Positions 3,171-39,714 of a stretch of DNA of 64,000 nt are shown here, one piece after another. The translations under genes and the position numbers were made by a program. The first letter of the stretch is position 1; every line of letters starts with the position of its first letter. The DNA lies in NCBI GenBank assembly GCA_036261495.1, contig DATAKR010000156.1:2603-66602 (forward strand), written 5' to 3'. This DNA is from Acidimicrobiales bacterium. GTDB taxonomy: Bacteria > Actinomycetota > Acidimicrobiia > Acidimicrobiales > CADCTF01. A model generated the notes under the pieces. That model saw only the letters and a list, made by a program, of their open reading frames with translations. It was not told where the DNA came from and did no database searches.

Positions 3171-3199
3171 TGCACTCGGGTGCCCATCCAGTCGCGAGG

Positions 3200-3949
3200 C
3201 TACGGCAGCACCGGTGACGGGCCCGGGCCGCGGCGGGAGACGAGCTTGCGGTGCACTCGGTCAGGCAACACGGGCCGGGGCGCCGGCGAGCTGAACCCTC
3301 TGGCGATCAACCAGGCGGCGAGCACCATCTCCTGCACGCCGATGGGCAGGTTGAACGCGACCTGGACCCCCGACAGCGTGCCCACGACTTGGAACAGCAC
3401 GAGCAGCCCGGCGACCAGACCGAGCGCCGTCCCCGCGAGGCCCCACGCCGACAACCATCGCGGGATGAGTCGCGAGCGGTAGAAGACCAGGTAGTACGCG
3501 GTCGCTCCCGTGTAGAAGGCGAGGACTCCCACGACGCCGGCGGCGTCGCGCAGGCTGCGCAGGAGCTCGGCCGACGCCTGCAGCGACGAGGAGGCGGTCG
3601 CGGCGGCCGCGACCTGCTCGGACAGCGCGACGAGCACCAGCGTGCCGGTGGCGGACAGCGCGTAGAACACGCCCTCGATCAGCCGGAACGCGACCGCACC
3701 GAGCGCCGTTCCGGCCGAGTGCTCCTTGAGCACCGGATAGAAGGTGATGGCGATCGCCGCGCTCGAGAAGGCCGCCACGAGCTGGAACAGGGCCGCCGCG
3801 AGCAGCCGGTCCTGGTGCAACGACACGTCGGTCAGGAAGCCGGGCCCGTCGAGAGCCGATCCGAGCAGACCGGTGGCGGTGAGGCTCGCCCCCGTGGCGA
3901 TGATGAAGAGAACGCCGGCCGCCGTGGCTCGAACATCGCGTGATCTCAT
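3200..3949 (-). CDS. Integral membrane protein, tentatively DUF4386-like
   Basis: 249 aa with multiple hydrophobic helices. The opposite-strand ORF is Arg/Gly-rich junk. Confidence 0.7.
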   Translation of the reverse strand: MRSRDVRATAAGVLFIIATGASLTATGLLGSALDGPGFLTDVSLHQDRLLAAALFQLVAAFSSAAIAITFYPVLKEHSAGTALGAVAFRLIEGVFYALSATGTLVLVALSEQVAAAATASSSLQASAELLRSLRDAAGVVGVLAFYTGATAYYLVFYRSRLIPRWLSAWGLAGTALGLVAGLLVLFQVVGTLSGVQVAFNLPIGVQEMVLAAWLIARGFSSPAPRPVLPDRVHRKLVSRRGPGPSPVLP

Positions 3950-4172
3950 GACCGCCTCCAGCCGAGGAATCCGGCCGCAACTCGCTGCTCCACCTCGCTC
4001 TCCAAGGTTGCGAGTGCGCGAATCGTCGAGCCAGAGGCGAACGTCACGGGCCCTGGTACCGATGGCTCACCGGGAGCGGCGGAGGTCGATCGGCGGTAGC
4101 GATGCGGACAGGGCGACGCGTACCAGGGCGAGTCGAGACCATGATGGTCTCATCGGTCGAGAGGAGCACATC

Positions 4173-4526
4173 GTGAGTGACCGCGAACTCGGAAGTCCAC
4201 CCGAACCGGACGTTCGCGACGTCCCCGCCGAGCACCGCTTCGTCGTCGCCTATGACGGGGCGGTCGCCCAGCTCGTCTACCGGCTGGCCCCCGAGCAGCT
4301 CGTCCTCGTGCACACCGAGGTGCCCGACGAGCTCGGGGGTCGCGGCATCGGTGGCCGGCTCGTGCGGGCCGCGGCCGACCGAGCCGCCGCCGATCATCTG
4401 ACCGTGGTGCCGTGGTGCCCCTTCGCCCGTCGCTGGCTCCGCGACCATCCCGATGTGGCCTCGTCGATTGCGATCGACTGGGACTCGGCGCCGCCCGAGC
4501 AGGAGAGCGAGACCGCCGATGGCTGA
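4173..4526 (+). CDS. Small GNAT-family N-acetyltransferase (YjdJ-like)
   Basis: In-frame GTG at 4173 after GAGAGGAG. Motif HTEVPDELGGRGIGGRLV...VVPWCPFARRWL. The longer 260-aa ORF N-terminus is low-complexity. Confidence 0.75.
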   Translation: MSDRELGSPPEPDVRDVPAEHRFVVAYDGAVAQLVYRLAPEQLVLVHTEVPDELGGRGIGGRLVRAAADRAAADHLTVVPWCPFARRWLRDHPDVASSIAIDWDSAPPEQESETADG

Positions 4527-4977
4527 TCGCCACACCCGCCCCCAAGGCTCGAGGTCGACGAGCTGGATCCGCCGGGTGGGCCGGATGCTCCTCGCGTCGC
4601 AGTTCGTGTACGGCGGCTACAAGGCGGCCAAGGACCCCGGCCGGCGGCCCCACGCGCTCGAGAAGGCCGGGGTGCCCGGTGGCGCCGATCTGGTCCGCTT
4701 CAACGGCGCCGCGATGGCGGCGGGTGGGATCGCCTTGGGCCTCGGAATCTTCCCGAGGCTGGCGGCGGCCGGCTTGTTCGCCAGCCTGGTGCCGACCACG
4801 CTCGTCGGCCACCCGTTCTGGCGTGAGGAGGAGCCGGCGGCACGGCAGGCGCAGACCGTGCAGTTCTTGAAGAACGCCTCGATGCTCGGCGGCCTGCTGC
4901 TCGAGCTGGGCTCCCGACGCGGCGAGCAGCCGGGTGCCCGCCGCGCTGCCCAGCCGGAGATCGGCGGAGGGGGATGA
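4519..4977 (+). CDS. DoxX-family membrane protein
   Basis: ATG 4519 overlaps the upstream stop. Sequence LLASQFVYGGYKA...GHPFW...FLKNASMLGGLLL. Confidence 0.8.
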   Translation: MADRHTRPQGSRSTSWIRRVGRMLLASQFVYGGYKAAKDPGRRPHALEKAGVPGGADLVRFNGAAMAAGGIALGLGIFPRLAAAGLFASLVPTTLVGHPFWREEEPAARQAQTVQFLKNASMLGGLLLELGSRRGEQPGARRAAQPEIGGGG

Positions 4978-5906
4978 GCGGGCCGGTGACCGTCACCGAT
5001 GCCGAGGCCGAGGCTGAGTGCTCCGCGCCGGAGGTCGAGGCGATCGAGATCACCGAGAGCCGCGAGAGCCGCGTCGGCGCGTTCCGCGTACGCCGGGCGC
5101 TTCCGCGCCGAGGTCGGCGGACCGTCGGCGCGTGGTGCTTCGTCGATCACATGGGCCCGGCCGCGATCACCGAGGACCGCGGGCTCGACGTCGCGCCGCA
5201 TCCGCACATCGGGCTGCAGACGGTGACCTGGTTGTTCGAGGGTGAGGCGGTCCATCGCGACTCCCTCGGGACGGAGCAGGTCATCACACCGGGCGAGCTC
5301 AACCTGATGACCGCCGGCCACGGCGTGGCCCACTCCGAGGAGGGCACCGGCCGCTATCGCGGTGAGCTCCACGGCGTGCAGCTCTGGGTCGCCCAGCCGT
5401 CCGCGACTCGCGACGGGCCCGCCGCGTTCGAGCACCATGCCGAGCTTCCGAAGCTCGACTTCGAGGCTGCCGTCGCCACCGTGCTCGTGGGTGAGCTCGA
5501 CGGCCTGGCATCGCCGGCCCGGCACGACACCGACCACGTCGGCGTCGACCTCGAGCTCCGGTCGGGAACGACCACGGTGCCGCTCCGCGCCGACTTCGAG
5601 TACGCCGTGGTCGTGTTCACCGGTGGGGTGACGCTCGGGCGTCGCACGATCGATCCCGGCCGGCTCGCCTATCTCGGCCTCGGCCGCGAGGAGATCGCCC
5701 TGTCGGTGGCTGGCCGATCGCGGGCGCTCCTCTTCGGCGGCGTCCCGTTCGACGAGCCGGTGCTGATGTGGTGGAACTACGTCGCCCGGGATCGAGAGGA
5801 GATCGTGAAGGCGCACGCCGAGTGGTCGGCCGGCGGTGAACGGTTCGGGCGCGTCGATTCGGTGCTCCCGCGGATCGAGGTCGCGCCGCCGCCATGGGCA
5901 CGCTGA
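4974..5906 (+). CDS. Pirin-family protein
   Basis: HPHIGLQTVTWLFEGEAVHRDSLG...LMTAGHGVAHSEE. Overlaps the DoxX stop. Confidence 0.9.
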   Translation: MSGPVTVTDAEAEAECSAPEVEAIEITESRESRVGAFRVRRALPRRGRRTVGAWCFVDHMGPAAITEDRGLDVAPHPHIGLQTVTWLFEGEAVHRDSLGTEQVITPGELNLMTAGHGVAHSEEGTGRYRGELHGVQLWVAQPSATRDGPAAFEHHAELPKLDFEAAVATVLVGELDGLASPARHDTDHVGVDLELRSGTTTVPLRADFEYAVVVFTGGVTLGRRTIDPGRLAYLGLGREEIALSVAGRSRALLFGGVPFDEPVLMWWNYVARDREEIVKAHAEWSAGGERFGRVDSVLPRIEVAPPPWAR

Positions 5907-6754
5907 CTCCCGCCGGGTTCTTCGGGCACGGCAGCCCGATGAACACCCTCGACCACAACCGCTACACCGACACGTGGCGGTCCTTCGGTGACGCCGTTGG
6001 GCGACCACGAGCCGTGCTGGTCGTGTCGGCGCACTGGTACACGAACGCGACGGCCGTGACGGCGATGGCCCGCCCGCGCACCATCCACGACTTCTACGGG
6101 TTCCCCGACGAGCTGTTCGCCTTCGACTACCCGGCGCCGGGTGCGCCCGATGTCGCGGAGATGGTCGCCGAGGTGGTCAAGCCGCGATGGGTTGGCCTCG
6201 ACCTCGACAGCTGGGGGATCGATCACGGCACCTGGTCGGTGCTCGCTCACATGTTCCCCGCGGCCGACGTCCCCGTCGTGCAGCTCTCGATCAACGCCCT
6301 CGAACCGCTCGAGTACCACCTCGACCTCGGGACCCGATTGGCCACTCTCCGGGAGCAGGGCGTGCTGATCCTCGGCAGCGGGAACGTCGTGCACAACCTG
6401 CGGAGGATCGACTGGGGCAATCCTCAGGGCGGGTTCGACTGGGCGCGGAGATTCGACGAAGCCGCACGCCGGCTGATGCGGGAGGCGCCGGGCGACATCC
6501 TCGAGCTCGTGGGCCACGCCGACTACGAGCGCGCCGTGCCGACGCCCGACCACTTCATCCCGCTCCTCTACGTCGCGGCGATCGCCGCGGCCACGAACAC
6601 CACGCCGGAGGTGCCGGTCGACGGCTACACCTACGGGTCGCTGTCGATGACCTGCTTCACGATCGGCGCCGACTGCCCACGCGGCACCGGTGACGACGGG
6701 TCGACGGCGCTGCCGTCACCCGACGTCGTCCCGCCGGAGCAGGCCAACATCTGA
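5894..6754 (+). CDS. Class III extradiol dioxygenase (4,5-DOPA dioxygenase / YgiD-like)
   Basis: GFFGHGSPMN...SAHW...DHGTWSVL...GSGNVVHNL. 13-nt overlap with the pirin gene. Confidence 0.85.
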   Translation: MGTLTPAGFFGHGSPMNTLDHNRYTDTWRSFGDAVGRPRAVLVVSAHWYTNATAVTAMARPRTIHDFYGFPDELFAFDYPAPGAPDVAEMVAEVVKPRWVGLDLDSWGIDHGTWSVLAHMFPAADVPVVQLSINALEPLEYHLDLGTRLATLREQGVLILGSGNVVHNLRRIDWGNPQGGFDWARRFDEAARRLMREAPGDILELVGHADYERAVPTPDHFIPLLYVAAIAAATNTTPEVPVDGYTYGSLSMTCFTIGADCPRGTGDDGSTALPSPDVVPPEQANI

Positions 6755-7776: not shown

Positions 7777-8259
7777 GTGAGCGAGGTTCCTCACGACGGC
7801 GGCGGCCCACGGGGCGCCGCCCGATGGTCGAGCGCGGCACGACCGGACGTGCTCGCCGCCATTGCGGCCGGGGGCGCGCTGGGCGCGCCGGCGCGGTACG
7901 AGGTCGCGCAGGTGATCCACGTCGCCACCGGCACCTTCCCGTGGGCGACGTTCTGGACGAACGTCTCGGGCAGCTTCGCCCTCGGGTTCATCGTCATCCT
8001 GGTGATCGAACGGTTCCCACCGACCCGGTACCTGCGCCCGTTCTTCGCCACCGGCTTCCTGGGCGCGTTCACCACGTTCTCGACGTTCGCGGTGGAAGCC
8101 GACCTGTTGATCAAGGACGGCCATGCCGCGATCGGAGTCGCCTACGCGATCGGGAGCCTGGCCGCCGGGTTCGCGGCGGTGTGGGCCGGAATCGTGGCGG
8201 CGCGCCTGATCCCGTTGCCCGACGCCGGGCGCCACCGGTCGAGAGAGGGAAGGCGATGA
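7777..8259 (+). CDS. crcB: Fluoride channel CrcB, copy 1
   Basis: [10 protein letters not shown]...[15 protein letters not shown]...[12 protein letters not shown]. Start is uncertain: GTG 7777 follows AGGGGAGG, while GTG 7849 would give a more typical 137-aa protein. GC3 rises from about 79% to about 97% after 7849. Confidence 0.85.
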
Positions 8260-8609
8260 AGCTCGAAGGGCACCAGAAGCGGCTCACCATCTTCATCGGC
8301 GAGTCCGATCACCACGGCCACACGCCGCTCGCCACCGAGATCGTGCAGCGCGCCCACGCCGCGGGCACCGCCGGTGTGAGCGTGTTCCGCGGCGTGGAGG
8401 GCTACGGCGCCTCCAACCACATCCACACCACTCGGATCCTGTCGCTGTCGGACGACCTCCCGATGGCCGTGGTGATCGTCGACTCCGAGGAGGCCATCCA
8501 GGCCTTCCTGCCGACCCTCGACGAGCTGATCACCGAAGGCCTCGTGATCCTCGACGACGTCGAAGTCGTGAAGTACGTCGGCCGAGCCGGCAACGGTCCG
8601 GGGAAGTGA
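8256..8609 (+). CDS. DUF190 (PII-like) protein
   Basis: 117 aa, [22 protein letters not shown]...[12 protein letters not shown] and GTGA overlaps with both flanking crcB genes. Confidence 0.85.
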
Positions 8610-8983
8610 CGCCGGCGATCTTCGCCGGGCTCGTCGTCGCCGGCGCGGTGGGCGCACCGACCCGCTATCTCCTCGACGGCTTCGTCCAGAACCGCACCGC
8701 CGGCGCCTTGCCGTGGGGCACGTTCGTGATCAACGTGAGTGGGTCCCTGCTGCTCGGACTGGTCACGGGCGCAGGCCTCTACCACGCCTTCCCGTCGACG
8801 CCGAGGGTCTGGTTGGGCACCGGCTTCTGTGGCGCCTACACCACGTTCTCGACGTTCACGTTCGAGACCGTCCGGCTGCTCGAGGAGGGCGCCGTCACCG
8901 ACGCCTTCTTCAACGCCGGCGCCAGCCTGATCGCCGGCACCGCGGCCGCCGCGGCCGGCCTCGCGCTGGCCGCCGCGCTCTGA
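8606..8983 (+). CDS. crcB: Fluoride channel CrcB, copy 2
   Basis: GAVGAPTRY...[15 protein letters not shown]...[12 protein letters not shown]. Confidence 0.9.
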
Positions 8984-8997
8984 CGATCCGGCGCGTC

Positions 8998-9495
8998 TCA
9001 GCGGCGGTCGTCGGCGGCGGCCCGGATCTCCGCGTCGAGGTCGAGCGGCATGCGGTCGGGCGTCCGGTCGGCCCACTCGCCCCAACGCTCGCGCGGCAAC
9101 ATCCACAGCACCTCGACGTTGTTGCCGTCGGGATCCCACCCGTACACCGACTTGGTCGCGCCGTGGTCGAACTCGCGGTCGAGGATGCCGTCGGCGGCGA
9201 ACCGCTGCCGCACCTCGGCCAGGTGCTCGGGCGAGTCGACCTCGAGCGCGAAGTGGAACAACCCGAGGGCGCCGTCCGGTCGCGCTGGCGCGTCAGCCTC
9301 GGCCTGCAGCAGCGCGAGGTCGTGGTTGTTGTTGGAGCCCGGCGCCCGTAGGAACGCCATCGCTCGCCCGTACCGTGCGAATGCCTCGGTGAACCCGAAG
9401 TAGCCGCAGTAGAACGCCACCGACCGGTCGAGGTCGCGAACCTTCAGGACGACGTGGTTGACGCGCCGGACCGGCGCAGCGATCTCCATCGACAC
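8998..9495 (-). CDS. VOC-family (glyoxalase / extradiol dioxygenase fold) protein
   Basis: VNHVVLKVRDLDRSVAFYCGYFGF...HFALEV. GTG start. Confidence 0.85.
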   Translation of the reverse strand: MSMEIAAPVRRVNHVVLKVRDLDRSVAFYCGYFGFTEAFARYGRAMAFLRAPGSNNNHDLALLQAEADAPARPDGALGLFHFALEVDSPEHLAEVRQRFAADGILDREFDHGATKSVYGWDPDGNNVEVLWMLPRERWGEWADRTPDRMPLDLDAEIRAAADDRR

Positions 9496-9535
9496 GGCCC
9501 CTCCTGGTCTCGCCCGATCTACAGCCGTACCGTAA

Positions 9536-9556
9536 TCTTACAGTGAGACTGTAAGA
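9536..9556. promoter_or_regulatory. Perfect 9-3-9 inverted repeat, probable TetR operator
   Basis: TCTTACAGT-gag-ACTGTAAGA in the AT-richer divergent region between the VOC gene (-) and the TetR gene (+). Confidence 0.5.
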
Positions 9557-9612
9557 GAGCGCCGGGCGGCAGTGAATACCGTGGCAATGATGACCGGAGG
9601 AGTGCAGCGACG

Positions 9613-10332
9613 GTGACGCGCCCGGCGCGCGAGCGCAGGACGCGGCGCAGCGAGGAGACCCGAGCGCGCGTCATCGGGGCCGCCGGCCGCCTCTTCGTCG
9701 AGCGGGGATATGCCGCGACCACCATCGAGGCCATCGCCGACGCCGCCGACGTGTCGGTCGAGACGGTCTACGTGCGGTTCCGCAACAAGCGGAACCTGCT
9801 CGATGCCTATCTCGACGTGGCCATCGTCGGCGACACGGCCGCCGTCCCCCTGCTCGAGCGGCCGGAGGTCGTGGCCGTCAGCGAAGAGCCTGACCCCCGG
9901 CGTCGGGCCGAGCTGCTCGCCGGCGTCATGGCGGGGGTGCTCGAGCGGACCGCGCCGGTGCAGCGGGTCATCGCCGGCGCGGCCGCCGTCGATCCCGGCC
10001 TCGACGACCTGCTGGCGCAGGACGATCGCCGTCGCCGGGTCACCCACACCGCGTTCGTCGACCTCCTGCGCGGCGCCGCCGGTCTCCGGGACGGCATCAC
10101 CCGGAAGGACGCGGTCGACACGCTCTCCGCGCTCGCGAACCCGGACACCTACCGGTACCTGTCGACTCGTCGCCGGTTCTCGCGCTCCCGGTACGAACGG
10201 TGGCTCGCCGACGCCATCGTGCAGCTCCTGCTACCTGCAGCGCCGGCGGATCGTCAGCCGCGTGGCGAGACGCGCCGGCGGGCCATTCGCCCGAACGCCA
10301 CGCGGTGCACGGGAACGAGCAGCTTCCAGTAG
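9613..10332 (+). CDS. TetR-family transcriptional regulator
   Basis: HTH GYAATTIEAIADAADVSVETVYVRFRNKRNLL. The 3' end overlaps the convergent gene by 79 nt. Confidence 0.85.
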   Translation: MTRPARERRTRRSEETRARVIGAAGRLFVERGYAATTIEAIADAADVSVETVYVRFRNKRNLLDAYLDVAIVGDTAAVPLLERPEVVAVSEEPDPRRRAELLAGVMAGVLERTAPVQRVIAGAAAVDPGLDDLLAQDDRRRRVTHTAFVDLLRGAAGLRDGITRKDAVDTLSALANPDTYRYLSTRRRFSRSRYERWLADAIVQLLLPAAPADRQPRGETRRRAIRPNATRCTGTSSFQ

Positions 10333-11612
10333 AGGAACCCGGGAACGCCGGCGGGGCGGAAGGCGGCCACCTGGAGGAGCCGGTCCGGGCCGGCGCGGTA
10401 GCCCAGCCACGCGTCGCCCGGGAACCAGCCGTCACTGCGGAGCACGAGGACGCCGGGCTCCACGCGAGCAACCCTCCACCAGTCGACCGACGCGCCCGCC
10501 GCGACGACGGCGGCGCGCCGGCGGCGCAGGTGCTCGCCGACGAGGCGACCGAGGGCCACCCGAAGAACCCAGCCGGCGGCGGCGCCGTACCAGCCGAAGC
10601 TGCCCCCGATCCGGGCGAGGTCGCGGCCGACGGCGTCAGCGCGATCACCGGGGATCGCGAGCGCTTCCGTCACCGTGTACACGCCGTCGGCCAGACCGTC
10701 GTGGCGGTCGAACAGCGTGGCGGTCACCGCCAGATCCTGGTCGTCGAGCGCCGATCGCAGCGCGTCCCGGACCGACATCGGGGTCACCGTGAACGCCCGG
10801 CGACTCGGATCCGGGTCGGTCACCACCACCTCGGTGACGAGGCTCTCGATGAGCGCGTGGCTGACGGCCTGATCGACCGGTGTGACGAGATCCACCCAGT
10901 ACGACGACAGGCGGGGCGTGAGCCACGGGATGTCGACGATCCGGCGCCGGTGCAGCCCGCGCACCCGGGCGTACTCGAGGATCATCTCCTCATAGGTCGT
11001 CACGTCGGCGCCGCCGACCTCGTAGATGCCGGGCTCGACGTCGACCGACTGCTCGAGATAGGCGAGGAGGTCTGCGAGGGCGATCGGCTGGATGCGGGTG
11101 CGGACCCAGCGGGGGCACACCATGAATGGCAGCCGCTCCGTCAGGTACCGCAGCATCTCGAAGGAGATGCCGCCGGCGCCGAACACGACGGCAGCGCGCA
11201 GCTCGACCACCGGGAGACCCGAGCCGCGCAGCGCGGCGCCGACTTCGTGCCGGCTGGCGAGGTGGGCCGACGACGGTGCCTCGCCCAGGCCGCCGACGTA
11301 GACGAGGCGGCGAGCGCCGGCCGTCGCCGCGGCGCGCCCGAACGTCTCCGCCAGCCGCCGATCGAGCTCCCGGAACGACGGCCCCGTGGCCAACGAGTGC
11401 ACCAGGTAGTAGGCCATGTCGACGCCGGCGAGCGCGGCGGTGGCGGCCGCCTCGTCGCTCACGTCGACGGCGACCGCGGTCGCGCCCGGCGGCACGGCCA
11501 CCGTCGACCGGGAGAGGGCCACCACCTCGTGCCCCGCCGCGGCCAACCTCGCGGTCAGCGCTCGTCCGACGAACCCCGAGGCACCGGCGATGGCGATTCT
11601 CACGCCACCCAC
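10254..11612 (-). CDS. NAD(P)-binding (atypical SDR/NmrA-like) protein with a DUF2867-like C-terminal domain
   Basis: Rossmann motif RIAIAGASGFVGRAL. Alternative GTG at 11603. Confidence 0.8.
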   Translation of the reverse strand: MGGVRIAIAGASGFVGRALTARLAAAGHEVVALSRSTVAVPPGATAVAVDVSDEAAATAALAGVDMAYYLVHSLATGPSFRELDRRLAETFGRAAATAGARRLVYVGGLGEAPSSAHLASRHEVGAALRGSGLPVVELRAAVVFGAGGISFEMLRYLTERLPFMVCPRWVRTRIQPIALADLLAYLEQSVDVEPGIYEVGGADVTTYEEMILEYARVRGLHRRRIVDIPWLTPRLSSYWVDLVTPVDQAVSHALIESLVTEVVVTDPDPSRRAFTVTPMSVRDALRSALDDQDLAVTATLFDRHDGLADGVYTVTEALAIPGDRADAVGRDLARIGGSFGWYGAAAGWVLRVALGRLVGEHLRRRRAAVVAAGASVDWWRVARVEPGVLVLRSDGWFPGDAWLGYRAGPDRLLQVAAFRPAGVPGFLYWKLLVPVHRVAFGRMARRRVSPRG

Positions 11613-28543: not shown

Positions 28544-28683
28544 GCCCGGGGCCGCGCCGCGCGCGTACGGGGCCGACAGCCATGCTGGTGGGACCTTCGA
28601 CCCTGTGGGAATGCGCCGCATGCGGCGTTGTGTCGGACAGGCAGACCTCGATGCCGAGGTCGGGATCGTCGCGAAAGGACGCC

Positions 28684-29393
28684 ATGGGTCAGCTTCGTGC
28701 CCAGCGAGTGCTCGTGGTCGACGATGAGACGGCGATCCGCGACATCCTCCACCGCTACCTCGCGGCCGCCGGGTTCGAGGTGGCCGAAGCCGTCGACGGT
28801 GACGACGCGCTCGTCCAGTTCGAGGCGCGGGAACCCGATCTCGTCGTCCTCGACATCATGCTGCCGGGCGTCGACGGGCTCGAGGTGCTCCGCCGTCTCC
28901 GCTCCCGTTCCGACGTCTACGTCATCCTCCTCACCGCGAAGGCGGAGGAGGTCGACAAGCTGGTGGGGCTCTCGGTGGTGCCGACGACTACCTCACCAAG
29001 CCGTTCAGCCCGCGCGAGCTCGTCGCGCGGGTGCGCACCGTGCTTCGCCGCGAGCGCGACGAGCGCCCGGCCGCTCACGACGCCGATGTCCTTCGCTTCG
29101 CGGGTCTCGACATCGACCGCGCCCGGCGCGAGGTGCGCCACGCCGGCCGCCTGGTGGAGCCCAGCGCGTTGGAGTTCGACCTCCTCACGGCGCTCGCCGA
29201 GTCGCCGGGCCGCGTCTTCACGCGCCGCCAGCTGCTGGAGCGCGTGTGGGGATGGGACTACGTCGGCGACGAGCGGGTCGTCGACGTGCACATCCGCAAC
29301 CTGCGCCGCGTGCTCGGCGACGACGCCACCGACCCGGGCGTGATCGCGACCGTGCGGGGCGTCGGCTACAAGTTCGTGGCCGGCCCCGCATGA
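28684..29393 (+). pseudogene. OmpR-family response regulator interrupted by a 1-nt deletion
   Basis: The receiver domain (VLVVDDE...DLVVLDIMLPGVDG...LLTAK) runs to ...LVGLSV in frame 1. The expected continuation GADDYLTKPFSPRELVARV plus the winged-helix domain (...VRGVGYKF) is in frame 3 from 28977. One G appears to be missing in ctcggtGGtgcc near 28975-28977. Confidence 0.8.
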
Positions 29394-34424: not shown

Positions 34425-34558
34425 GCTCGTCTCCCTCCTCGTGGCGCCCCATGGTGCTCCACCGATCCGGTCGGGTCACGCGCACCGGCGATCGCCGGTG
34501 ACGTAGCGTCCCGCGACGGCCGCCGGCTCGGCGCGGCCGACGGGAGGCGAAGAGGGGC

Positions 34559-35770
34559 GTGACCGAGGTGTTGCGGCAAGCGGAGGAGCTCATCGCGGAG
34601 CGATGGTCGCCGTCGGTCGACGGCCGCGCGTGGCGCGAGCTCGTGGTCGACGAGGGGTGGGCCGCGCTGCGGTGGCCGGTCGAGTGGTACGGGCGCGGAC
34701 TGACCGACGATGAGGCCAAGGAGGTCGAGGCGGTCTTCGCCGCGGCCGGCGCCCCCGGGCCCGGCCAGGACGTCTACAACCTCTGGGCGGGCACGATGTT
34801 CTCGCACGGCAGCGACGAGCTGAAGCGCCGGTTCCTGCGGCCCCTCCTGCTCGACGACGTGGCCATGTGCCTGCTCTACAGCGAGCCCAACGCCGGCTCC
34901 GACCTTGCCGGAGTGCGGACGACGGCCGTGCGCGACGGCGACGAGTGGGTGGTCAACGGCCAGAAGGTGTGGACCTCGGGTGCCGCCGGCGCGGACTACG
35001 GCATGCTCATCGCGCGCACCGACTGGGATCAGCCGAAGCACCGCGGCATCACCTTCTTCTGGTTCCCGATGCGCCAGCCGGGCGTCGAGGTGCGACCCCT
35101 TCGCCAGATCACCGGCGACTCGCGGTTCAACGAGGTGTTCCTCACCGACGCCCGCGTTCCCGACAGCCATCGCCTGGGCGAGCTGAACCAGGGCTGGTGG
35201 GTGCTGCAGACCGCGCTCACCTACGAGCGGGCGGTCATGGGTGCGGCTCGGGGGCGTCCCCGCCCGACCCCCTCCTCCGACGGCGACGCGGCTCCCACCG
35301 GCGCCACCGCGGCCGCGCACGGTCGGATCCCGACGCCCGACCTCTCGCTCGTCGACGTCGCCCGGTCGACCGGGCACGCGGGCGATCGCGTTGCGCGAGA
35401 CGCCATCGCCCGACTCCACGTGCAGCGGACCGTGAACGGATGGAACGGCGAGCGGGCGAAGGCCACCGCGGCCGCCGGCGGATCGTCGCCGCTCGCCTCG
35501 CTCGGCAAGCTCGCCATGTCGGGCATCCTCCACTACGCCGGCCACCTGTCGGGGTTGCTGCTCGGGATGGAAGCCACGCTCGACGGCGACGAGAACCCCC
35601 GCGCCCGCGACGCCAACTACTCGCATCTCAACGCCTACTTCACCTCGATCGGCGGCGGCACCGACCAGATCCAGCGCAACATCATCGGCGAGCGCATCCT
35701 CGGCCTGCCGAAGGAGCCCGACGTCGACCGCGACGTGCCGTTCCGGAACGTCGCGGGCGGCCCCCGATGA
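34559..35770 (+). CDS. Acyl-CoA dehydrogenase-family protein
   Basis: YSEPNAGSDLAG...DGDEWVVNGQKVWTSGA...SIGGGTDQIQRNIIGERILGLP. Confidence 0.9.
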   Translation: MTEVLRQAEELIAERWSPSVDGRAWRELVVDEGWAALRWPVEWYGRGLTDDEAKEVEAVFAAAGAPGPGQDVYNLWAGTMFSHGSDELKRRFLRPLLLDDVAMCLLYSEPNAGSDLAGVRTTAVRDGDEWVVNGQKVWTSGAAGADYGMLIARTDWDQPKHRGITFFWFPMRQPGVEVRPLRQITGDSRFNEVFLTDARVPDSHRLGELNQGWWVLQTALTYERAVMGAARGRPRPTPSSDGDAAPTGATAAAHGRIPTPDLSLVDVARSTGHAGDRVARDAIARLHVQRTVNGWNGERAKATAAAGGSSPLASLGKLAMSGILHYAGHLSGLLLGMEATLDGDENPRARDANYSHLNAYFTSIGGGTDQIQRNIIGERILGLPKEPDVDRDVPFRNVAGGPR

Positions 35771-36534
35771 GCGGGCGATTCGATCTCACCGGGAAGGTGG
35801 CGGTGGTCACCGGCGGCAGCCGCGGCCTCGGCCGGGCCATGGCCGGCGCATTCGCGGAGCAGGGCGCCGACGTCGTGATCGCGAGCCGCAAGCTCGACGC
35901 CTGCCAGGCGGCGGCCGCCGAGATCACCGCGGCCACCGGTTGCCGCACGCTCGCGGTCGCCTTCCACGCCGCCCGGTGGGACGATGCCGACCGGCTGGCC
36001 GGCGCCGTCTACGACGAGTTCGGACGCTGCGACATCGTCGTCAACAACGCCGGCATGTCGCCGCTCTACCCCTCGCTCGCGGAGGTCTCGGAGGACCTGT
36101 TCGACAAGGTCGTGGGCGTCAACTTCAAGGGGCCGTTCCGGCTGTCGGCGCTCCTCGGCGAGCGCATGGCTGCGGCCGACGGCGGGTCGATCATCAACGT
36201 GTCGTCCGTCGCGGCCGTGCAACCCACGCCGGGCGAGCTGGTGTACGCCGGCGCCAAGGCCGCGCTCAACGCCATGACCGTCGGCTTGGCCCGCGCCTAC
36301 GCACCCAAGGTGCGGTGCAACGTGATCATGCCGGGGCCGTTCCTCACCGACATCAGCAAGGCGTGGGATCTCGACGCCTTCCGGCGCTCGGCGGCCACGG
36401 CGATCCCGCTGCAGCGCGGCGGCGAGCCCGACGAGATCGTCGGCGCCGCGCTCTACCTGGCGAGCGACGCGTCGAGCTACACCACCGGCGCGGTGATCAA
36501 GGTCGACGGCGGCATGGCGTTCCCGCCGGCGTGA
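35767..36534 (+). CDS. SDR-family oxidoreductase
   Basis: TGGSRGLG Rossmann motif and YAGAKAAL catalytic motif. ATGA overlap with the ACAD gene. Confidence 0.9.
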   Translation: MSGRFDLTGKVAVVTGGSRGLGRAMAGAFAEQGADVVIASRKLDACQAAAAEITAATGCRTLAVAFHAARWDDADRLAGAVYDEFGRCDIVVNNAGMSPLYPSLAEVSEDLFDKVVGVNFKGPFRLSALLGERMAAADGGSIINVSSVAAVQPTPGELVYAGAKAALNAMTVGLARAYAPKVRCNVIMPGPFLTDISKAWDLDAFRRSAATAIPLQRGGEPDEIVGAALYLASDASSYTTGAVIKVDGGMAFPPA

Positions 36535-37565
36535 TCGACGGCGTCGACCTCGATGCCCTCGCCGCGTGGATGGACGGCGAAGGTCTGCCGGGCGGACCCA
36601 TCACGGCCGTCGAGCAGCTGGCCGGGGGCACGCAGAACGTCCTCGTGCGCTTCGAGCGGGGCGGCGAGCGCTACGTGCTCCGGCGGCCGCCACTCCACAA
36701 GCGGGGCAACAGCGACGAGACGATGCGCCGCGAAGCCCGCGTGCTGGGCGCCCTCGCCGGGTCGGGCGTTCCGCACCCGCGCCTCATCGCGGCCTGTGGC
36801 GCCACCGACGTCCTGGGCGCGGCCTTCTACCTCATGGAGCCCATCGACGGAGCCAACCCCACGGTCGGGTTGCCGGAGCCGTACCTCGCGGATCGGGAGT
36901 GGCGGCGCGCCCTCGGCCTCGCGATGGCCGACGGTGCGGCCGCGGTCGGCGCCGTCGACCATGTCGCCGCCGGGCTCGGCGACCTCGGCAAGGCCGAGGG
37001 CTACCTCGAGCGCCAGGTCGCGCGCTGGCAGCGCCAGCTGGCCTCGTACTCCGACCTCGCCGGCTACCCCGGTCCCGAGATTCCCGGTGTCGACGCGGTG
37101 GGCGGGTGGCTCGACGCCAACCGTCCGACCTCGTGGCGTCCCGGACTCATCCACGGCGACTACCACCTCGCCAACGTCCTGTGCGCCCTCGACCGGCCCG
37201 GGCTGGCGGCCATCGTCGACTGGGAGCTGACCACCATCGGCGACCCTCTGCTCGACCTCGGATGGCTGCTCGCCACCTGGCCCGACGACGGCGACGGGTC
37301 GAGCACGGGCGCGGCACCGGTCGCGCCGTGGGACGGGTTCCCCCGCGCCGCGGAGCTGGTGGCGCGGTACGGCGAGCGCTCCGATCGCAACCTCTCGGCG
37401 ATCGCCTGGTACGAGGTGCTCGCCTGCTACAAGCTCGGGATCATCCTCGAGGGCAGCCACGCCCGCGCCGCCGCCGGTCTTGCGCCGAAGGCGATCGGCG
37501 ACCGGCTGCACGCCACCACGCTCGGGCTCTTCGCCCGAGCGCGGCGGCGCATCGCCACTACTTGA
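36531..37565 (+). CDS. APH-fold phosphotransferase (ACAD10/11-kinase / LvaA-like family)
   Basis: Brenner motif LIHGDYHLANVL and IVDWELTTIGDPLLDLG. GTGA overlap with the SDR gene. Confidence 0.85.
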   Translation: MIDGVDLDALAAWMDGEGLPGGPITAVEQLAGGTQNVLVRFERGGERYVLRRPPLHKRGNSDETMRREARVLGALAGSGVPHPRLIAACGATDVLGAAFYLMEPIDGANPTVGLPEPYLADREWRRALGLAMADGAAAVGAVDHVAAGLGDLGKAEGYLERQVARWQRQLASYSDLAGYPGPEIPGVDAVGGWLDANRPTSWRPGLIHGDYHLANVLCALDRPGLAAIVDWELTTIGDPLLDLGWLLATWPDDGDGSSTGAAPVAPWDGFPRAAELVARYGERSDRNLSAIAWYEVLACYKLGIILEGSHARAAAGLAPKAIGDRLHATTLGLFARARRRIATT

Positions 37566-39714
37566 TCAGCGGATCGCGCGGCAGACCCAGGATCCGCTCG
37601 CCGATCTGGTTGCGCTTGATCTCGGAGGTGCCTCCCGCGATCGACATGGCCCGGTGCATGAGCACGAGCATGTTGCTCATCGCGCCCTCGCCGTCCATGA
37701 ACGCGGCCTCCGGCCCGCTGAGCTCCGACAGGATGGCGGCGGCCTCGTGGCCGATCTCGGAGAGGACGAGCTTCGTCATGGCCCCCTCCGGTCCGGGCTC
37801 TGCACCCGACACGGCGCGGTTGGCGCTGCGCAGGTTCAGCAGGTTCATCGCCTGGTGCTCGGCGATGTAGCGGCCGACTCGGGCCGCGCCGCCGGCGAGG
37901 CGCTCGGGATGAGCATCGAAGGGGGCCACCAGTGCGTCGCCCGGCAGCGACATGCCGCCCTGGCCACCGCCGATGCTGACGCTCTCGTTGCCGAGCGTGG
38001 CGCGGGCGACGGTCCAGCCACCATCGATCGGCCCGACGACGTCGTCGTCGGGCACGAACACGTCGTTGAAGAACACCTCGTTGAACTCCGACATGCCGCT
38101 CGTCATGCGCAGCGGACGGACCTCGACACCCGGGGCCTTCATGTCGATGACCATCGTCGTGATGCCGTCGTGCTTCGGCACGTCGGGGTTGGTGCGGACG
38201 GTGGCGAAGCCCTTGCCGGCGACGTGCGCGCCGCTCGTCCACACCTTCTGGCCGTTGACCAGCCAGCCACCGTCGACGCGGGTCGCCTTGGTCTTGATCC
38301 CCGCGGCGTCGGAGCCGGCGTCCGGCTCGCTGAAGAGCTGGCACCAGATGACCTCCTGGCTGAGCGCGGACGGCACCCAGCGCTGCACCTGGTCGTCGGT
38401 CGCGTGCTGGATGAGCGTGAGGATCACCCACCCGGTGATCCCGTAGCCCGGACGCTTGACGCCGGCCTTCTCGAACTCCTGCTCGATGACGAGCTGCTCG
38501 ATGGCGCCGGCCTCGCGACCCCAGGGCTTGGGCCAGTGGGGCATCACGTAGCCGCTCTTGATGAGGGCGTCGCGCTGGGCGGCGGCGTCGAGGCCCTTGA
38601 TGCTGTCGGCGAAGGCGCGCACCTCTTCGCGGATGGGCTCGGCCTCGGGCGGCAGGTCGACGGTGCGCGCCCGGCGCACGCCCTTCCTCACGAGGTCGGT
38701 CAGCTCCGTGGCGGCCGCGTCGTTGTCGAGGAGCGCGCGCAGCGTCGTGGCGCGGCGGAGGTAGAGGTGCGCGTCGTGCTCCCATGTGAAGCCGATGCCG
38801 CCGTGCACCTGGATGTTGAGGTTGGCGCACAGGTCGGCGGCCGGCCCGGCGAGCGTCGCCGCCACCGCGGCGGCGTAGGTGAGCTGGTCGCCCCCCTTCG
38901 ACGCGGCGCGAGCCGCGTCCCAGACGGCGCTGGTGGCCAGCTCCGTCGCCACCACCATGTTGGCGCAGTGGTGCTTGACGGCCTGGTACATGGCGATGGG
39001 GCGCCCGAACTGCTGGCGCACCTTGGCGTACTCGGCGGCCGACTCGGTGCACTCGCGGGCGATGCCGACCGCCTCGGCCGCCAGGATCACCCGGGCCAGG
39101 TCGACGAACGCCCGGCGGGCGCCCGGCAGCACGGTGGCCGGCGCGTTGTCGAGGACGACCCGCGCCGATCGCCGCGTCGGGTCGAGGTTCGTGGGCGTCT
39201 GCACGGTTACACCGGGGGCGCCGGCCTCGATGACGACGACGTCGTCGCCCGCGCCGACCAGGATCACCGTCGCGAGGCCGCCGCCGAGCACGGTGCCCGC
39301 CGAACCCGACGCGGCACCGTCGCGCACCTCGACGCGGCCGCCGAGGCCGACACCGGCGACCGCCGTGCCGTCGACGAGGCCGGGCAGCAGACCCTTCCTC
39401 GCGGCGTCGTCGCCGGCCGCGACGAGGACGGCGCTGGCGACCACGGTCGGCACGAACGGACCCGGCGCGATGGCGCGGCCGAGCTCCTCGACGACGACGA
39501 CGAGCTCCTCGATGCCGTAGCCGGACCCGCCGTACTCCTCGGGAACGTGGAGGCCCAGCCAGCCCAGCTCGACGGCGTCCTTCCACAGGTCGGGCATCGG
39601 TTCGGTCGACGCTTCCAGCAACGCGCGGGCCGCGGCCCGCGAGTCGCGCCGCTTCAACACATCGGACGCGGTGGCGGCCAGAGCGCGGTGGTCTTCGGTG
39701 ATCGCGATGGACAT
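37558..39714 (-). CDS. Fused two-module acyl-CoA dehydrogenase
   Basis: 718 aa. First ACAD-like module ends ...IQVHGGIGFTWEHDAHLYLRRA. Second module has FSEPDAGSDAAG...NGQKVWTSGA...IAGGTSEIKRNQIGERILGLP. Confidence 0.85.
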   Translation of the reverse strand: MSIAITEDHRALAATASDVLKRRDSRAAARALLEASTEPMPDLWKDAVELGWLGLHVPEEYGGSGYGIEELVVVVEELGRAIAPGPFVPTVVASAVLVAAGDDAARKGLLPGLVDGTAVAGVGLGGRVEVRDGAASGSAGTVLGGGLATVILVGAGDDVVVIEAGAPGVTVQTPTNLDPTRRSARVVLDNAPATVLPGARRAFVDLARVILAAEAVGIARECTESAAEYAKVRQQFGRPIAMYQAVKHHCANMVVATELATSAVWDAARAASKGGDQLTYAAAVAATLAGPAADLCANLNIQVHGGIGFTWEHDAHLYLRRATTLRALLDNDAAATELTDLVRKGVRRARTVDLPPEAEPIREEVRAFADSIKGLDAAAQRDALIKSGYVMPHWPKPWGREAGAIEQLVIEQEFEKAGVKRPGYGITGWVILTLIQHATDDQVQRWVPSALSQEVIWCQLFSEPDAGSDAAGIKTKATRVDGGWLVNGQKVWTSGAHVAGKGFATVRTNPDVPKHDGITTMVIDMKAPGVEVRPLRMTSGMSEFNEVFFNDVFVPDDDVVGPIDGGWTVARATLGNESVSIGGGQGGMSLPGDALVAPFDAHPERLAGGAARVGRYIAEHQAMNLLNLRSANRAVSGAEPGPEGAMTKLVLSEIGHEAAAILSELSGPEAAFMDGEGAMSNMLVLMHRAMSIAGGTSEIKRNQIGERILGLPRDPLIK

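What the first reader, a model, noticed from the sequence alone, without database searches (positions are those of the whole stretch)
34559..37565. ACAD-SDR-kinase operon matching the Lva / ACAD10-11 phosphorylation-elimination logic
- Three genes are coupled by ATGA (35767) and GTGA (36531) overlaps. They encode an acyl-CoA dehydrogenase-family protein, an SDR and an APH-fold phosphotransferase with intact HGDxxxxN and DWE motifs.
- The same enzyme set defines the Pseudomonas putida levulinate (lva) pathway. There the SDR makes 4-hydroxyacyl-CoA, the kinase phosphorylates it, and the ACAD-like enzyme eliminates phosphate.
- Kinase-ACAD fusions occur in human ACAD10/ACAD11, which are implicated in 4-hydroxy acid catabolism.
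- In this ACAD the position of the canonical YEG catalytic Glu reads GGG (SIGGGTDQIQR).
- This may therefore be a 4-oxo/4-hydroxy acid catabolic module rather than ordinary beta-oxidation.
Basis: partly seen in the sequence, partly recalled or inferred. Interest (0 to 1): 0.55.

Follow-up and report, generated by a model that had tools for sequence, protein, structure and literature searches.

The report
Lva-type SDR-kinase pair beside ordinary ACAD
The three overlapping genes are real, but only the reductase and the kinase belong to the known 4-hydroxy-acid breakdown route; the acyl-CoA dehydrogenase in front of them is an ordinary enzyme of another branch that sits there only in this lineage.

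Summary
Three translationally coupled genes on an Acidimicrobiales-like MAG contig encode an ACAD (34559-35770), an SDR (35767-36534) and an APH-fold kinase (36531-37565).

- **Kinase.** It belongs to the ACAD10/11-N / LvaA-type family. Orthologues (62-83% identical) lie within about 2 kb of LvaC/ACAD10-11-type ACADs in 21 of 80 genomes.
- **SDR.** Orthologues (55-86% identical) sit directly upstream of the kinase in several phyla. One related MAG has a tight LvaC-type ACAD-SDR-kinase operon.
- **ACAD.** It is not LvaC-type. It falls in the ChsE4(FadE26)/PimC branch.
  - The GGG at the YEG site is invariant in that orthogroup, and ChsE4 also has it. The glutamate that aligns with ChsE4 E247 on helix G (E223, YER) is invariant.
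  - The catalytic Asp and the HCMR motif are both absent.
  - Its orthologues elsewhere are stand-alone genes without an SDR or kinase.
- **LvaC-type ACAD.** A true one, with its own kinase paralogue, lies on another contig of the same genome.

Most likely this is a known-type LvaD/LvaA-like pair placed next to a conventional dehydrogenase. This scan has already reported Lva-type modules in many other genomes.

The parts
34559..35770 (+). P0001: stand-alone acyl-CoA dehydrogenase of the ChsE4(FadE26)/PimC-large branch. Putative helix-G catalytic Glu is E223 (TYER); GGG 365-367 sits at the YEG site. Not LvaC-type.
   Evidence: Translation. Pfam and NCBIfam. Best PDB hit 4x28_A at 3.5e-43, against 1e-13 for ACAD11. 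E223 and GGG invariant in 38 orthologues. Best fold matches are ChsE4-ChsE5 and Tcur3481-3483.
35767..36534 (+). P0002: classical SDR with TGGSRGLG, NNAG and S...YxxxK. Candidate LvaD-like 4-oxoacyl-CoA reductase. Its start overlaps the ACAD stop (ATGA).
   Evidence: Orthologues 55-86% identical lie directly upstream of the kinase orthologue in 8 of 80 genome loci and in metagenome contigs. In L030 the orthologue lies between an LvaC-type ACAD and the kinase.
36531..37565 (+). P0003: ACAD10/11-N / LvaA-type small-molecule kinase. Key residues are R51, R67-E68, R161, D210, N215 and D230-W-E. Its start overlaps the SDR stop (GTGA).
   Evidence: PDB hits: 9o56 8.7e-39, 3dxp 8.5e-38, ACAD11 kinase domain 2e-25. 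Residues invariant in 84 orthologues. 21 of 80 orthologues lie within about 2.2 kb of an LvaC-type ACAD. Tree placement.
34425..34558 (.). 134-bp divergent intergenic region between the cysE-like gene (minus strand) and the ACAD. A GGGAGG/AGAGGGG ribosome-binding stretch precedes the GTG start. Presumed promoter region of the three-gene unit.
   Evidence: Sequence read; gene phases. No promoter was tested.
37558..39714 (-). Context only: a convergent tandem double-ACAD gene whose stop (37558-37560) overlaps the kinase stop region by 8 bp. Not part of the module.
Evidence: Pfam shows two sets of ACAD domains. Junction read.

Best explanation
The locus joins two units of different history.

**SDR plus kinase.** Genes 2 and 3 form a conserved pair of the Lva / ACAD10-11 kind.
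- By inference, the NAD(P)H-dependent SDR reduces a 4-oxoacyl-CoA to a 4-hydroxyacyl-CoA, or otherwise supplies the hydroxyl.
- The kinase then phosphorylates the 4-hydroxyl with ATP.

**ACAD.** Gene 1 (P0001) is a conventional alpha,beta-dehydrogenase of the ChsE4/PimC branch.
- Its inferred catalytic base is a helix-G glutamate.
- It came to lie directly upstream of the pair only in this lineage. It is probably co-transcribed and may serve ordinary beta-oxidation rounds of the same substrates.

**Phosphate elimination.** This step, giving 2-enoyl-CoA, is most likely done in trans. The candidate is the genome's true LvaC/ACAD10-11-type ACAD on contig C135, which has its own kinase paralogue.

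**Shown here:** family placement of all three proteins, motif content, and conservation of the SDR-kinase pair but not of the trio.

**Inferred:** substrates, direction of the SDR reaction, co-transcription and action in trans.
For: **Kinase**
- The best solved relatives are 9o56, 3dxp and the ACAD11 kinase domain.
- The beta3 Arg, the alphaC Arg-Glu, the ACAD11 R176 equivalent (ERQV), the HGD...N loop and DWE are invariant in 84 orthologues. Their roles come from PMC12440821 and PMC13596139.

**Linkage to LvaC-type ACADs**
- 21 of 80 orthologous kinases (62-83% identical) have an ACAD carrying RLG[GP]GRIHH[AC]MR within about 2.2 kb. The copies read through also carry ADGP[DT]EVH.
- P0003 sits in a well-supported (97) clade with two such kinases. 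The next sister and the sister clade are also LvaC-adjacent.

**SDR**
- 55-86% identical SDRs lie directly upstream of the kinase in Acidimicrobiia, Myxococcota, Binatia, Thermodesulfobacteriota and Acetobacteraceae.
- L030 has LvaC-type ACAD, then SDR (81%), then kinase (75%), with a 2-nt gap and an ATGA overlap.

**ACAD**
- The best sequence hits are ChsE4 (3.5e-43) and Tcur3483, and pimC_large in NCBIfam.
- The best fold hits are ChsE4-ChsE5, Tcur3481-3483 and Fic32-33, then LCAD.
- E223 aligns with ChsE4 E247. E223 and GGG365-367 are invariant in 38 orthologues.
- Orthologues at 59-82% identity stand alone in nine varied contexts, with no SDR or kinase beside them.

**True LvaC-type ACAD in the same genome**
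- C135:8746-10014 scores 4.6e-63 against ACAD11 and carries RIHHAMR and IADGVDEVH. A kinase follows it directly.
Against: - No enzyme activity is known for any protein of this orthogroup.
- 59 of 80 orthologous kinases have no LvaC-type ACAD within 5 kb. Their neighbours are varied: NMO, hydrolase, luciferase-like oxidoreductase, Coq4 and fatty-acid hydroxylase.
- The orthogroup has an invariant His (HGDYH) where ACAD11 and 9o56 have Lys and the paralogues have Arg. That Lys is essential in the C. thermarum enzyme (PMC13596139), so the substrate or mechanism may differ.
- The same kinase family has been reported to phosphorylate 1-O-alkylglycerols (PMC13596139).
- An ACAD directly upstream with a 4-bp overlap is unlikely by chance alone. 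About 17 ACAD genes were found in 2.64 Mb, so P0001 may have a closer role than assumed here.
- P. putida LvaA, LvaC and LvaD themselves could not be fetched for direct comparison.
Confidence: 0.6

Rival explanations
1. Non-orthologous replacement. P0001 has taken over the LvaC role in this operon and eliminates phosphate from the 4-phosphoacyl-CoA made by P0003, using its helix-G glutamate and FAD. The trio would then be a complete Lva-like module built with a different ACAD.
For: - P0001 occupies exactly the slot that an LvaC-type ACAD holds in the related operon L030 (ACAD-SDR-kinase).
- It is coupled to the SDR by an ATGA overlap.
- Kinases of this family also sit next to conventional ACADs elsewhere. 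The second cluster in L030 has kinase, SDR and an ACAD with a canonical TEG glutamate.
Against: - P0001 lacks the Asp base, the HCMR motif and the upstream Arg that PMC12440821 links to binding and turnover of the phosphorylated substrate.
- Its orthologues at 59-82% identity, with the same active-site residues, are stand-alone genes never seen next to an SDR or kinase. The sequence therefore shows no sign of specialisation.
- The genome already has a true LvaC-type ACAD.
Confidence: 0.08
2. The kinase is a CoA-activated lipid-alcohol kinase (1-O-alkylglycerol or monoacylglycerol type), and the SDR supplies or processes a lipid alcohol or ketone. The pair would serve membrane or ether-lipid metabolism, and the ACAD would be unrelated.
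For: - P0003's best solved relative is 9o56 (8.7e-39). Its residue numbering (R61, E78, D214, K216, N219, D234) matches the Caldalkalibacillus thermarum kinase described in PMC13596139.
- That preprint reports that this enzyme and several prokaryotic homologues phosphorylate chimyl alcohol, some with acetyl-CoA activation.
- Many orthologues occur in Myxococcota, and many have no ACAD nearby.
- One orthologue sits between Coq4-like and fatty-acid-hydroxylase genes.
Against: - 21 of 80 orthologues, and the whole sister clade, are adjacent to LvaC-type ACADs. That points to acyl-CoA chemistry.
- The essential Lys of the C. thermarum enzyme is His in this orthogroup.
- The preprint itself leaves open how the two activities relate.
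- Ether-lipid genes were not searched for in this genome.
Confidence: 0.15
3. The three genes share a transcript by accident of rearrangement and act on unrelated or unknown substrates, for example a hydroxylated xenobiotic or a secondary metabolite. No pathway can be read from the trio.
For: - The trio is not conserved anywhere examined.
- Neighbours of the kinase orthologues vary widely.
- The SDR has only generic FabG or gluconate-5-dehydrogenase-like matches.
Against: - The SDR-kinase pair is conserved across phyla at high identity and with overlapping reading frames.
- The kinase family has repeated linkage to acyl-CoA enzymes.
Confidence: 0.15

Closest known systems
Pseudomonas putida levulinate operon lvaABCDE (Rand et al. 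2017, as described in PMC12440821 and PMC11342911)
   Same: An SDR and an APH-fold kinase are encoded together. Orthologues of both are found in tight operons with LvaC-type ACADs. The expected chemistry is reduction to a 4-hydroxyacyl-CoA followed by ATP-dependent phosphorylation.
   Different: The ACAD in the window is not LvaC-type. There is no acyl-CoA synthetase (LvaE) next to the trio and no small ORF in the LvaB position. The P. putida sequences themselves could not be compared.
Mammalian ACAD10/ACAD11 (mouse ACAD11, PDB 8v3u/8v3v; PMC12440821, PMC11342911)
   Same: P0003 aligns over the whole ACAD11 kinase domain (2e-25). It conserves the beta3 Arg, the alphaC Arg-Glu, the R176 equivalent, the catalytic Asp/Asn and DWE.
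   Different: The proteins are split, not fused. His replaces the Lys two residues after the catalytic Asp. P0001 matches the ACAD11 dehydrogenase domain only at 1e-13 over the middle domain, and it lacks D753, H634/R637 and R626 equivalents.
Mycobacterium tuberculosis ChsE4 (FadE26) of the ChsE4-ChsE5 alpha2beta2 ACAD (PDB 4x28) and Thermomonospora curvata Tcur3483
   Same: These are the best sequence and fold matches of P0001. ChsE4 also has GGG at the YEG site. E223 of P0001 aligns with ChsE4 E247 on helix G. From my own recollection of Yang et al. 2015, E247 is the catalytic base.
   Different: P0001 and its orthologues have no adjacent beta-subunit gene. The E-helix proline that widens the steroid pocket (ChsE4 P89; PMC11153573) aligns with Gly in P0001. 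No steroid genes are nearby.
Caldalkalibacillus thermarum ACAD10-kinase homologue (structure described in PMC13596139; numbering matches PDB 9o56)
   Same: It is the best solved relative of P0003 (8.7e-39), with the same R-E pair, catalytic loop and DWE.
   Different: It is reported as a 1-O-alkylglycerol kinase with an essential HYDxK lysine. P0003 has HGDYH.
LvaC-type ACAD-SDR-kinase operon of Acidimicrobiales MAG AVDCRST_MAG20 (locus L030)
   Same: Same gene order and tight coupling. The SDR is 81% and the kinase 75% identical to those of the window.
   Different: Its first gene is a true LvaC/ACAD10-11-type ACAD carrying RLGGGRIHHAMR and IADGPTEVH. A TetR gene follows the kinase.

Membership tests
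ACAD10/11-N / LvaA-type kinase family (P0003) | APH/protein-kinase-like fold with the HxDxxxxN catalytic loop and the DWE metal-binding motif | tested here: met
   Pfam APH 2.7e-38. HGDYHLAN and DWE are present and invariant in 84 orthologues.
ACAD10/11-N / LvaA-type kinase family (P0003) | Closer to the ACAD11 kinase domain, 3dxp and 9o56 than to antibiotic or choline kinases | tested here: met
   PDB search: 9o56 8.7e-39, 3dxp 8.5e-38, ACAD11 2e-25. The next hits are at 4e-9 or weaker. NCBIfam APH(3') reaches only 8e-5, far below its cut-off.
ACAD10/11-N / LvaA-type kinase family (P0003) | Beta3 Arg paired with the alphaC Glu, plus the Arg residues proposed to hold the CoA moiety (ACAD11 R176 and the Arg next to the alphaC Glu) | tested here: met
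   R51, R67-E68 and R161 align with these positions and are invariant. Their roles are taken from PMC12440821 and PMC13596139.
ACAD10/11-N / LvaA-type kinase family (P0003) | Basic residue (Lys or Arg) two positions after the catalytic Asp (HxDxK) | tested here: not met
   P0003 and all 84 orthologues have His. ACAD11 and 9o56 have Lys, 3dxp has Arg, and the own-genome paralogues have Arg.
ACAD10/11-N / LvaA-type kinase family (P0003) | Encoded next to, or fused with, an LvaC/ACAD10-11-type ACAD | tested here: inconclusive
   Not so in the window. It is so for 21 of 80 orthologues and for the sister clade. An LvaC-type ACAD exists in trans on C135.
ACAD10/11-N / LvaA-type kinase family (P0003) | ATP-dependent phosphorylation of 4-hydroxyacyl-CoA | not testable with these tools
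   Needs an enzyme assay.
LvaC / ACAD10-11-type phosphate-eliminating ACAD (P0001) | Catalytic Asp in the J-K loop (ADGPDEVH; mouse ACAD11 D753) | tested here: not met
   P0001 reads SIGGGTDQIQR, invariant in its orthologues. The C135, L030 and L046 ACADs have ADG at this site.
LvaC / ACAD10-11-type phosphate-eliminating ACAD (P0001) | HCMR motif and upstream Arg on helix G (RLGxGRIHHxMR) | tested here: not met
   P0001 has LTYERAVMGAARG there. The motif is present in 23 ACADs near kinase orthologues and in the C135 ACAD.
LvaC / ACAD10-11-type phosphate-eliminating ACAD (P0001) | High identity within the clade (LvaC is 56-62% identical to ACAD10/11; PMC11342911) | tested here: not met
   P0001 is 27-36% identical to three LvaC-type ACADs over only 126-221 residues. 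Its match to ACAD11 is 1e-13, against 4.6e-63 for the C135 ACAD.
ChsE4(FadE26)/PimC-large-type ACAD (P0001) | Best sequence and fold similarity to this branch | tested here: met
   4x28_A 3.5e-43 and Tcur3483 1.3e-39. pimC_large 1.2e-40, partial and below the equivalog cut-off. Foldseek top hits are 4x28 and 6wy9/6wy8 (model pLDDT 77.7, TM about 0.53).
ChsE4(FadE26)/PimC-large-type ACAD (P0001) | Catalytic Glu on helix G, with Gly at the J-K loop site | tested here: met
   E223 aligns with ChsE4 E247. E223 and G365-G367 are invariant in 38 orthologues, and the Glu is kept in four own-genome paralogues. A catalytic role is inferred only.
ChsE4(FadE26)/PimC-large-type ACAD (P0001) | Adjacent gene for a beta (FAD-tail-binding) subunit, giving an alpha2beta2 enzyme | tested here: not met
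   No second ACAD gene lies beside P0001 on its strand, or beside its orthologues. The convergent double ACAD is a separate gene.
ChsE4(FadE26)/PimC-large-type ACAD (P0001) | E-helix proline that opens a steroid-sized pocket (ChsE4 P89; PMC11153573) | tested here: not met
   In the HMMER alignment, ChsE4 SVAPTIM faces P0001 LWAGTMF. NLWAGT is conserved in the orthologues.
LvaD-like SDR (P0002) | Classical SDR with TGxxxGxG, NNAG and the Ser-Tyr-Lys catalytic residues | tested here: met
   The sequence shows VTGGSRGLG, NNAG, VSS and YAGAK. adh_short 1.4e-48.
LvaD-like SDR (P0002) | Encoded in an operon with an Lva-type kinase and an LvaC-type ACAD | tested here: inconclusive
   It is with the kinase in the window. 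Its 81% orthologue in L030 lies between an LvaC-type ACAD and the kinase. In seven other loci it is paired with the kinase only.
LvaD-like SDR (P0002) | Sequence relationship to P. putida LvaD, and 4-oxoacyl-CoA reductase activity | not tested
   The LvaD sequence was not obtainable with these tools. Activity needs an assay.

The most novel reading that the evidence does not exclude
P0001 is a non-orthologous stand-in for LvaC. A ChsE4/PimC-branch ACAD with a helix-G glutamate, and without the Asp/HCMR signature, would eliminate phosphate from 4-phosphoacyl-CoA. That would show the phospho-elimination chemistry is not confined to the ACAD10/11 clade.
Probability: 0.07. Interest if true: 0.65.

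Novelty: new member of a known kind. Interest (0 to 1): 0.25.

Why it matters
The 4-hydroxy-acid route through a phosphorylated acyl-CoA is already established in Pseudomonas, Burkholderia and mammals. This scan has flagged it in many other genomes, so another kinase-SDR pair adds little.

Three points are useful:
- **A caution for annotation.** An ACAD beside an Lva-type kinase is not necessarily the phosphate-eliminating partner. A Gly at the YEG site does not mark LvaC-like chemistry.
- **A distinct kinase orthogroup.** It is tightly conserved and spread across phyla (62-87% identity across Actinomycetota, Myxococcota, Binatia and Alphaproteobacteria). It has an invariant His in the catalytic loop and is often paired with one particular SDR. 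It would be a good test case for the open question of whether this family acts on 4-hydroxyacyl-CoAs or on lipid alcohols.
- **A comparison set.** The report lists loci that carry the full LvaC-type ACAD, SDR and kinase set.

Tried and rejected
- **P. putida LvaA/LvaC/LvaD for a direct tree.** No tool gives these sequences, and P. putida is not among the control genomes. I used ACAD11 and other PDB chains, plus motif-defined LvaC-type neighbours, as stand-ins.
- **Fused kinase-ACAD forms among the kinase's relatives.** The 150 best cluster representatives are nearly all 210-375 aa stand-alone proteins. This gave no anchor to eukaryotic ACAD10/11.
- **Synteny in 40 relatives.**
  - Kinase orthologues (G005, G008, G032) and ACAD orthologues (G016, G023, G036) occur in different genomes and never together.
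  - I rejected the idea that the trio is an inherited operon.
- **A beta-subunit partner for P0001.** None was found.
- **The 228-275 segment of P0001 as an unusual insertion.** Rejected: orthologues and paralogues all have a variable segment there.
- **AlphaFold model of P0001.**
  - The model has medium confidence only (pLDDT 77.7; the C-terminal 40 residues score about 41-50).
  - I used it only for ranking fold matches, not for active-site geometry.
- **Ether-lipid genes (AGPS) in the genome.** Not searched.


Full report
**What is there**

The window is 72% G+C. It is part of a 67-kb contig of a 2.64-Mb, about 70%-complete MAG. Its closest protein relatives are labelled Acidimicrobiales.

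Three plus-strand genes lie at the stated coordinates:
- an ACAD, P0001 (34559-35770, 403 aa);
- an SDR, P0002 (35767-36534, 255 aa);
- an APH-fold kinase, P0003 (36531-37565, 344 aa).

Codon-position G+C confirms the frames. The ATGA and GTGA overlaps were read directly, and a GGGAGG stretch precedes the ACAD's GTG start. Pfam assigns Acyl-CoA_dh_M/_1, adh_short and APH.

Upstream, on the other strand, lie a cysE-like hexapeptide transferase and a cysK-like PLP enzyme. Downstream, a convergent tandem double-ACAD gene overlaps the kinase's 3' end by 8 bp.

**The kinase**

P0003's best solved relatives are 9o56 (8.7e-39), 3dxp (8.5e-38) and the kinase domain of mouse ACAD11 (2e-25, aligned over residues 14-316). 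The next hits are at 4e-9 or weaker. Matches to antibiotic kinases in NCBIfam are marginal.

Several residues with described roles are present and invariant in 84 orthologues. Their roles come from PMC12440821 and PMC13596139:
- the beta3 Arg;
- the alphaC Arg-Glu;
- the ACAD11 R176 equivalent, in ERQV;
- the catalytic Asp and Asn;
- the DWE motif.

One position differs. Two residues after the catalytic Asp the whole orthogroup has His. ACAD11 and 9o56 have Lys there, 3dxp has Arg, and the genome's own paralogues have Arg.

**The kinase orthogroup and its neighbours**

A scan of species-representative genomes returned 80 loci with kinases 62-83% identical to P0003. They come from Acidimicrobiia, Mycobacteriales, Myxococcota, Binatia and many Alphaproteobacteria.

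In 21 of these loci an ACAD with the signature RLG[GP]GRIHH[AC]MR lies within about 2.2 kb of the kinase, and the copies read through also carry ADGP[DT]EVH. These are the HCMR motif, the upstream Arg and the catalytic Asp that PMC12440821 gives as specific to LvaC and ACAD10/11.

In a 110-sequence tree P0003 falls in a well-supported (97) clade of nine that includes two LvaC-adjacent kinases (L030, L031). The next sister (a Mycobacterium sp.) and the sister clade of the whole orthogroup are also LvaC-adjacent.

**The SDR**

SDRs 55-82% identical to P0002 lie directly upstream of the kinase in eight of the 80 loci, across phyla. Metagenome contigs carrying kinases 82-87% identical to P0003 also have an SDR directly upstream, and the one compared (L027) is 86% identical to P0002. 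In one contig the order is reversed, kinase then SDR.

In the Acidimicrobiales MAG locus L030 the order is LvaC-type ACAD, SDR (81%) and kinase (75%). There is a 2-nt gap and then an ATGA overlap.

In about 15 alphaproteobacterial loci a different SDR (33-38% identical) follows the kinase directly. In several of them an LvaC-type ACAD comes next.

The SDR-kinase pair is therefore a conserved unit with a clear Lva-type association. P0002 itself gives only generic SDR matches.

**The ACAD**

P0001 is not of the LvaC type.
- Its best sequence hits are M. tuberculosis ChsE4/FadE26 (4x28_A, 3.5e-43) and T. curvata Tcur3483. ACAD11 scores 1e-13, over the middle domain only.
- The best NCBIfam model is pimC_large.
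- It is 27-36% identical to three LvaC-type ACADs, over 126-221 residues.
- An AlphaFold model (pLDDT 77.7) matches ChsE4-ChsE5, Tcur3481-3483 and Fic32-33 first, then LCAD.

It is invariant in 38 orthologues of P0001.

In this branch, as in IVD and LCAD (PMC11153573), the base is expected on helix G. E223 of P0001 aligns with ChsE4 E247. It is invariant in the orthologues and kept in four own-genome paralogues. Where ACAD11 has RIHHCMR, P0001 has YERAVMG.

**Is the trio conserved?**

It is not.
- Among 40 relatives, kinase orthologues (three genomes) and ACAD orthologues (three other genomes) never coincide.
- None of the 80 genome loci has a P0001-type ACAD upstream of the pair.
- Six contexts of 79-82% identical P0001 orthologues show a single gene among unrelated neighbours. 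None has an SDR, a kinase or a second ACAD.
- Even the contig with an 87%-identical kinase has a divergent SDR, not an ACAD, upstream of the pair.

The arrangement in the window is thus a lineage-specific juxtaposition of a widespread stand-alone ACAD with the SDR-kinase pair.

**The rest of the genome**

The same MAG carries a true LvaC/ACAD10-11-type ACAD on contig C135. It scores 4.6e-63 against ACAD11 and has RLGGGRIHHAMR and IADGVDEVH. A kinase paralogue follows it directly and probably continues on contig C60 (its last residues, TVIA, are the first of the C60 fragment). A TetR gene, an SDR and a thioesterase lie nearby.

Two more paralogous kinases sit beside an enoyl-CoA hydratase (C20) and beside luciferase-like oxidoreductases (C37). 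The C20 kinase is the orthologue (78%) of a second L030 kinase that is clustered with an SDR and a conventional ACAD.

**Most likely mechanism**

- P0002 reduces a 4-oxoacyl-CoA, or otherwise provides a 4-hydroxyacyl-CoA.
- P0003 phosphorylates the hydroxyl.
- An LvaC-type ACAD encoded elsewhere eliminates phosphate to give 2-enoyl-CoA.
- P0001 is a conventional dehydrogenase that is co-expressed.

Family placement and conservation are shown here. Substrates and action in trans are inferred.

**Rivals**

- P0001 substitutes for LvaC. This is unlikely given its unspecialised, orthogroup-wide active site.
- The kinase is a CoA-activated alkyl- or acylglycerol kinase, as reported for the C. thermarum homologue and others in a 2026 preprint (PMC13596139). 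The residue numbering in that preprint matches 9o56.
- The grouping is an accident and indicates no shared pathway.

**Standing**

The pathway type is known (PMC12440821, PMC11342911). This scan has already reported Lva-type modules in at least 65 other genomes, including SDR-kinase-LvaC-type trios. The finding is a new member of a known kind, with one correction: the adjacent ACAD is ordinary. Interest is low to moderate.

Noticed in passing
window 28582-29393: An OmpR-type response regulator is split by a 1-nt deletion inside the GADDY motif. The receiver domain is in one frame and the winged helix in another, upstream of a HAMP/HisKA kinase. This is either a pseudogene or an assembly error.
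   Followed up: partly
window 37558-37565: The kinase stop (TGA 37563-37565) and the stop of the convergent double-ACAD gene (37558-37560 on the minus strand) overlap, so the two 3' ends share 8 bp with no room for a terminator.
   Followed up: partly
G000 contig C135:7052-10656 and C60:2-445 (loci L011, L012): The genome's true LvaC/ACAD10-11-type ACAD (RIHHAMR, IADGVDEVH) is followed by a kinase paralogue cut by the contig end. The last residues on C135 (TVIA) reappear at the start of C60, so the two contigs probably abut. An SDR, a TetR gene and a thioesterase lie upstream.
   Followed up: partly
locus L030 (Acidimicrobiales MAG AVDCRST_MAG20) 2927-6682 and 8001-11023: Two kinase-SDR-ACAD clusters lie about 2 kb apart on opposite strands. 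One has an LvaC-type ACAD. The other has a conventional ACAD with the canonical Glu (ITEGAEEIQ). They are separated by a TetR gene and a DinB-like polymerase gene.
   Followed up: partly
P0003 residue 212 (window about 37164-37166) and 84 orthologues: An invariant His (HGDYH) occupies the position where ACAD11 and the C. thermarum enzyme have an essential Lys and other paralogues have Arg. This may mark a different substrate or mechanism for the orthogroup.
   Followed up: partly
loci L032, L045, L059 (Myxococcota, Thermodesulfobacteriota, Binatia): In L032 and L059, about 2.7 kb downstream of the SDR-kinase pair (about 2 kb in L045), lie a hexapeptide-repeat transferase (42-45% identical to the window's cysE-like gene) and then a conventional ACAD. 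An MgtE transporter lies between in L059. In the window the cysE-like gene sits just upstream of the ACAD.
   Followed up: no
G000 whole genome: There are at least nine paralogues of the ChsE4/PimC-type ACAD, plus the tandem double ACAD, in a 2.64-Mb partial genome. This is a large ACAD repertoire for its size.
   Followed up: no
locus L024 5756-6004 and locus L014 8578-9030: Small ORFs (82 and 150 aa, no Pfam match) lie just upstream of the kinase orthologue in two genomes. The 82-aa ORF overlaps the kinase start and the 150-aa ORF ends 4 nt before it. Their position recalls LvaB of P. putida; there is no such ORF in the window.
   Followed up: no
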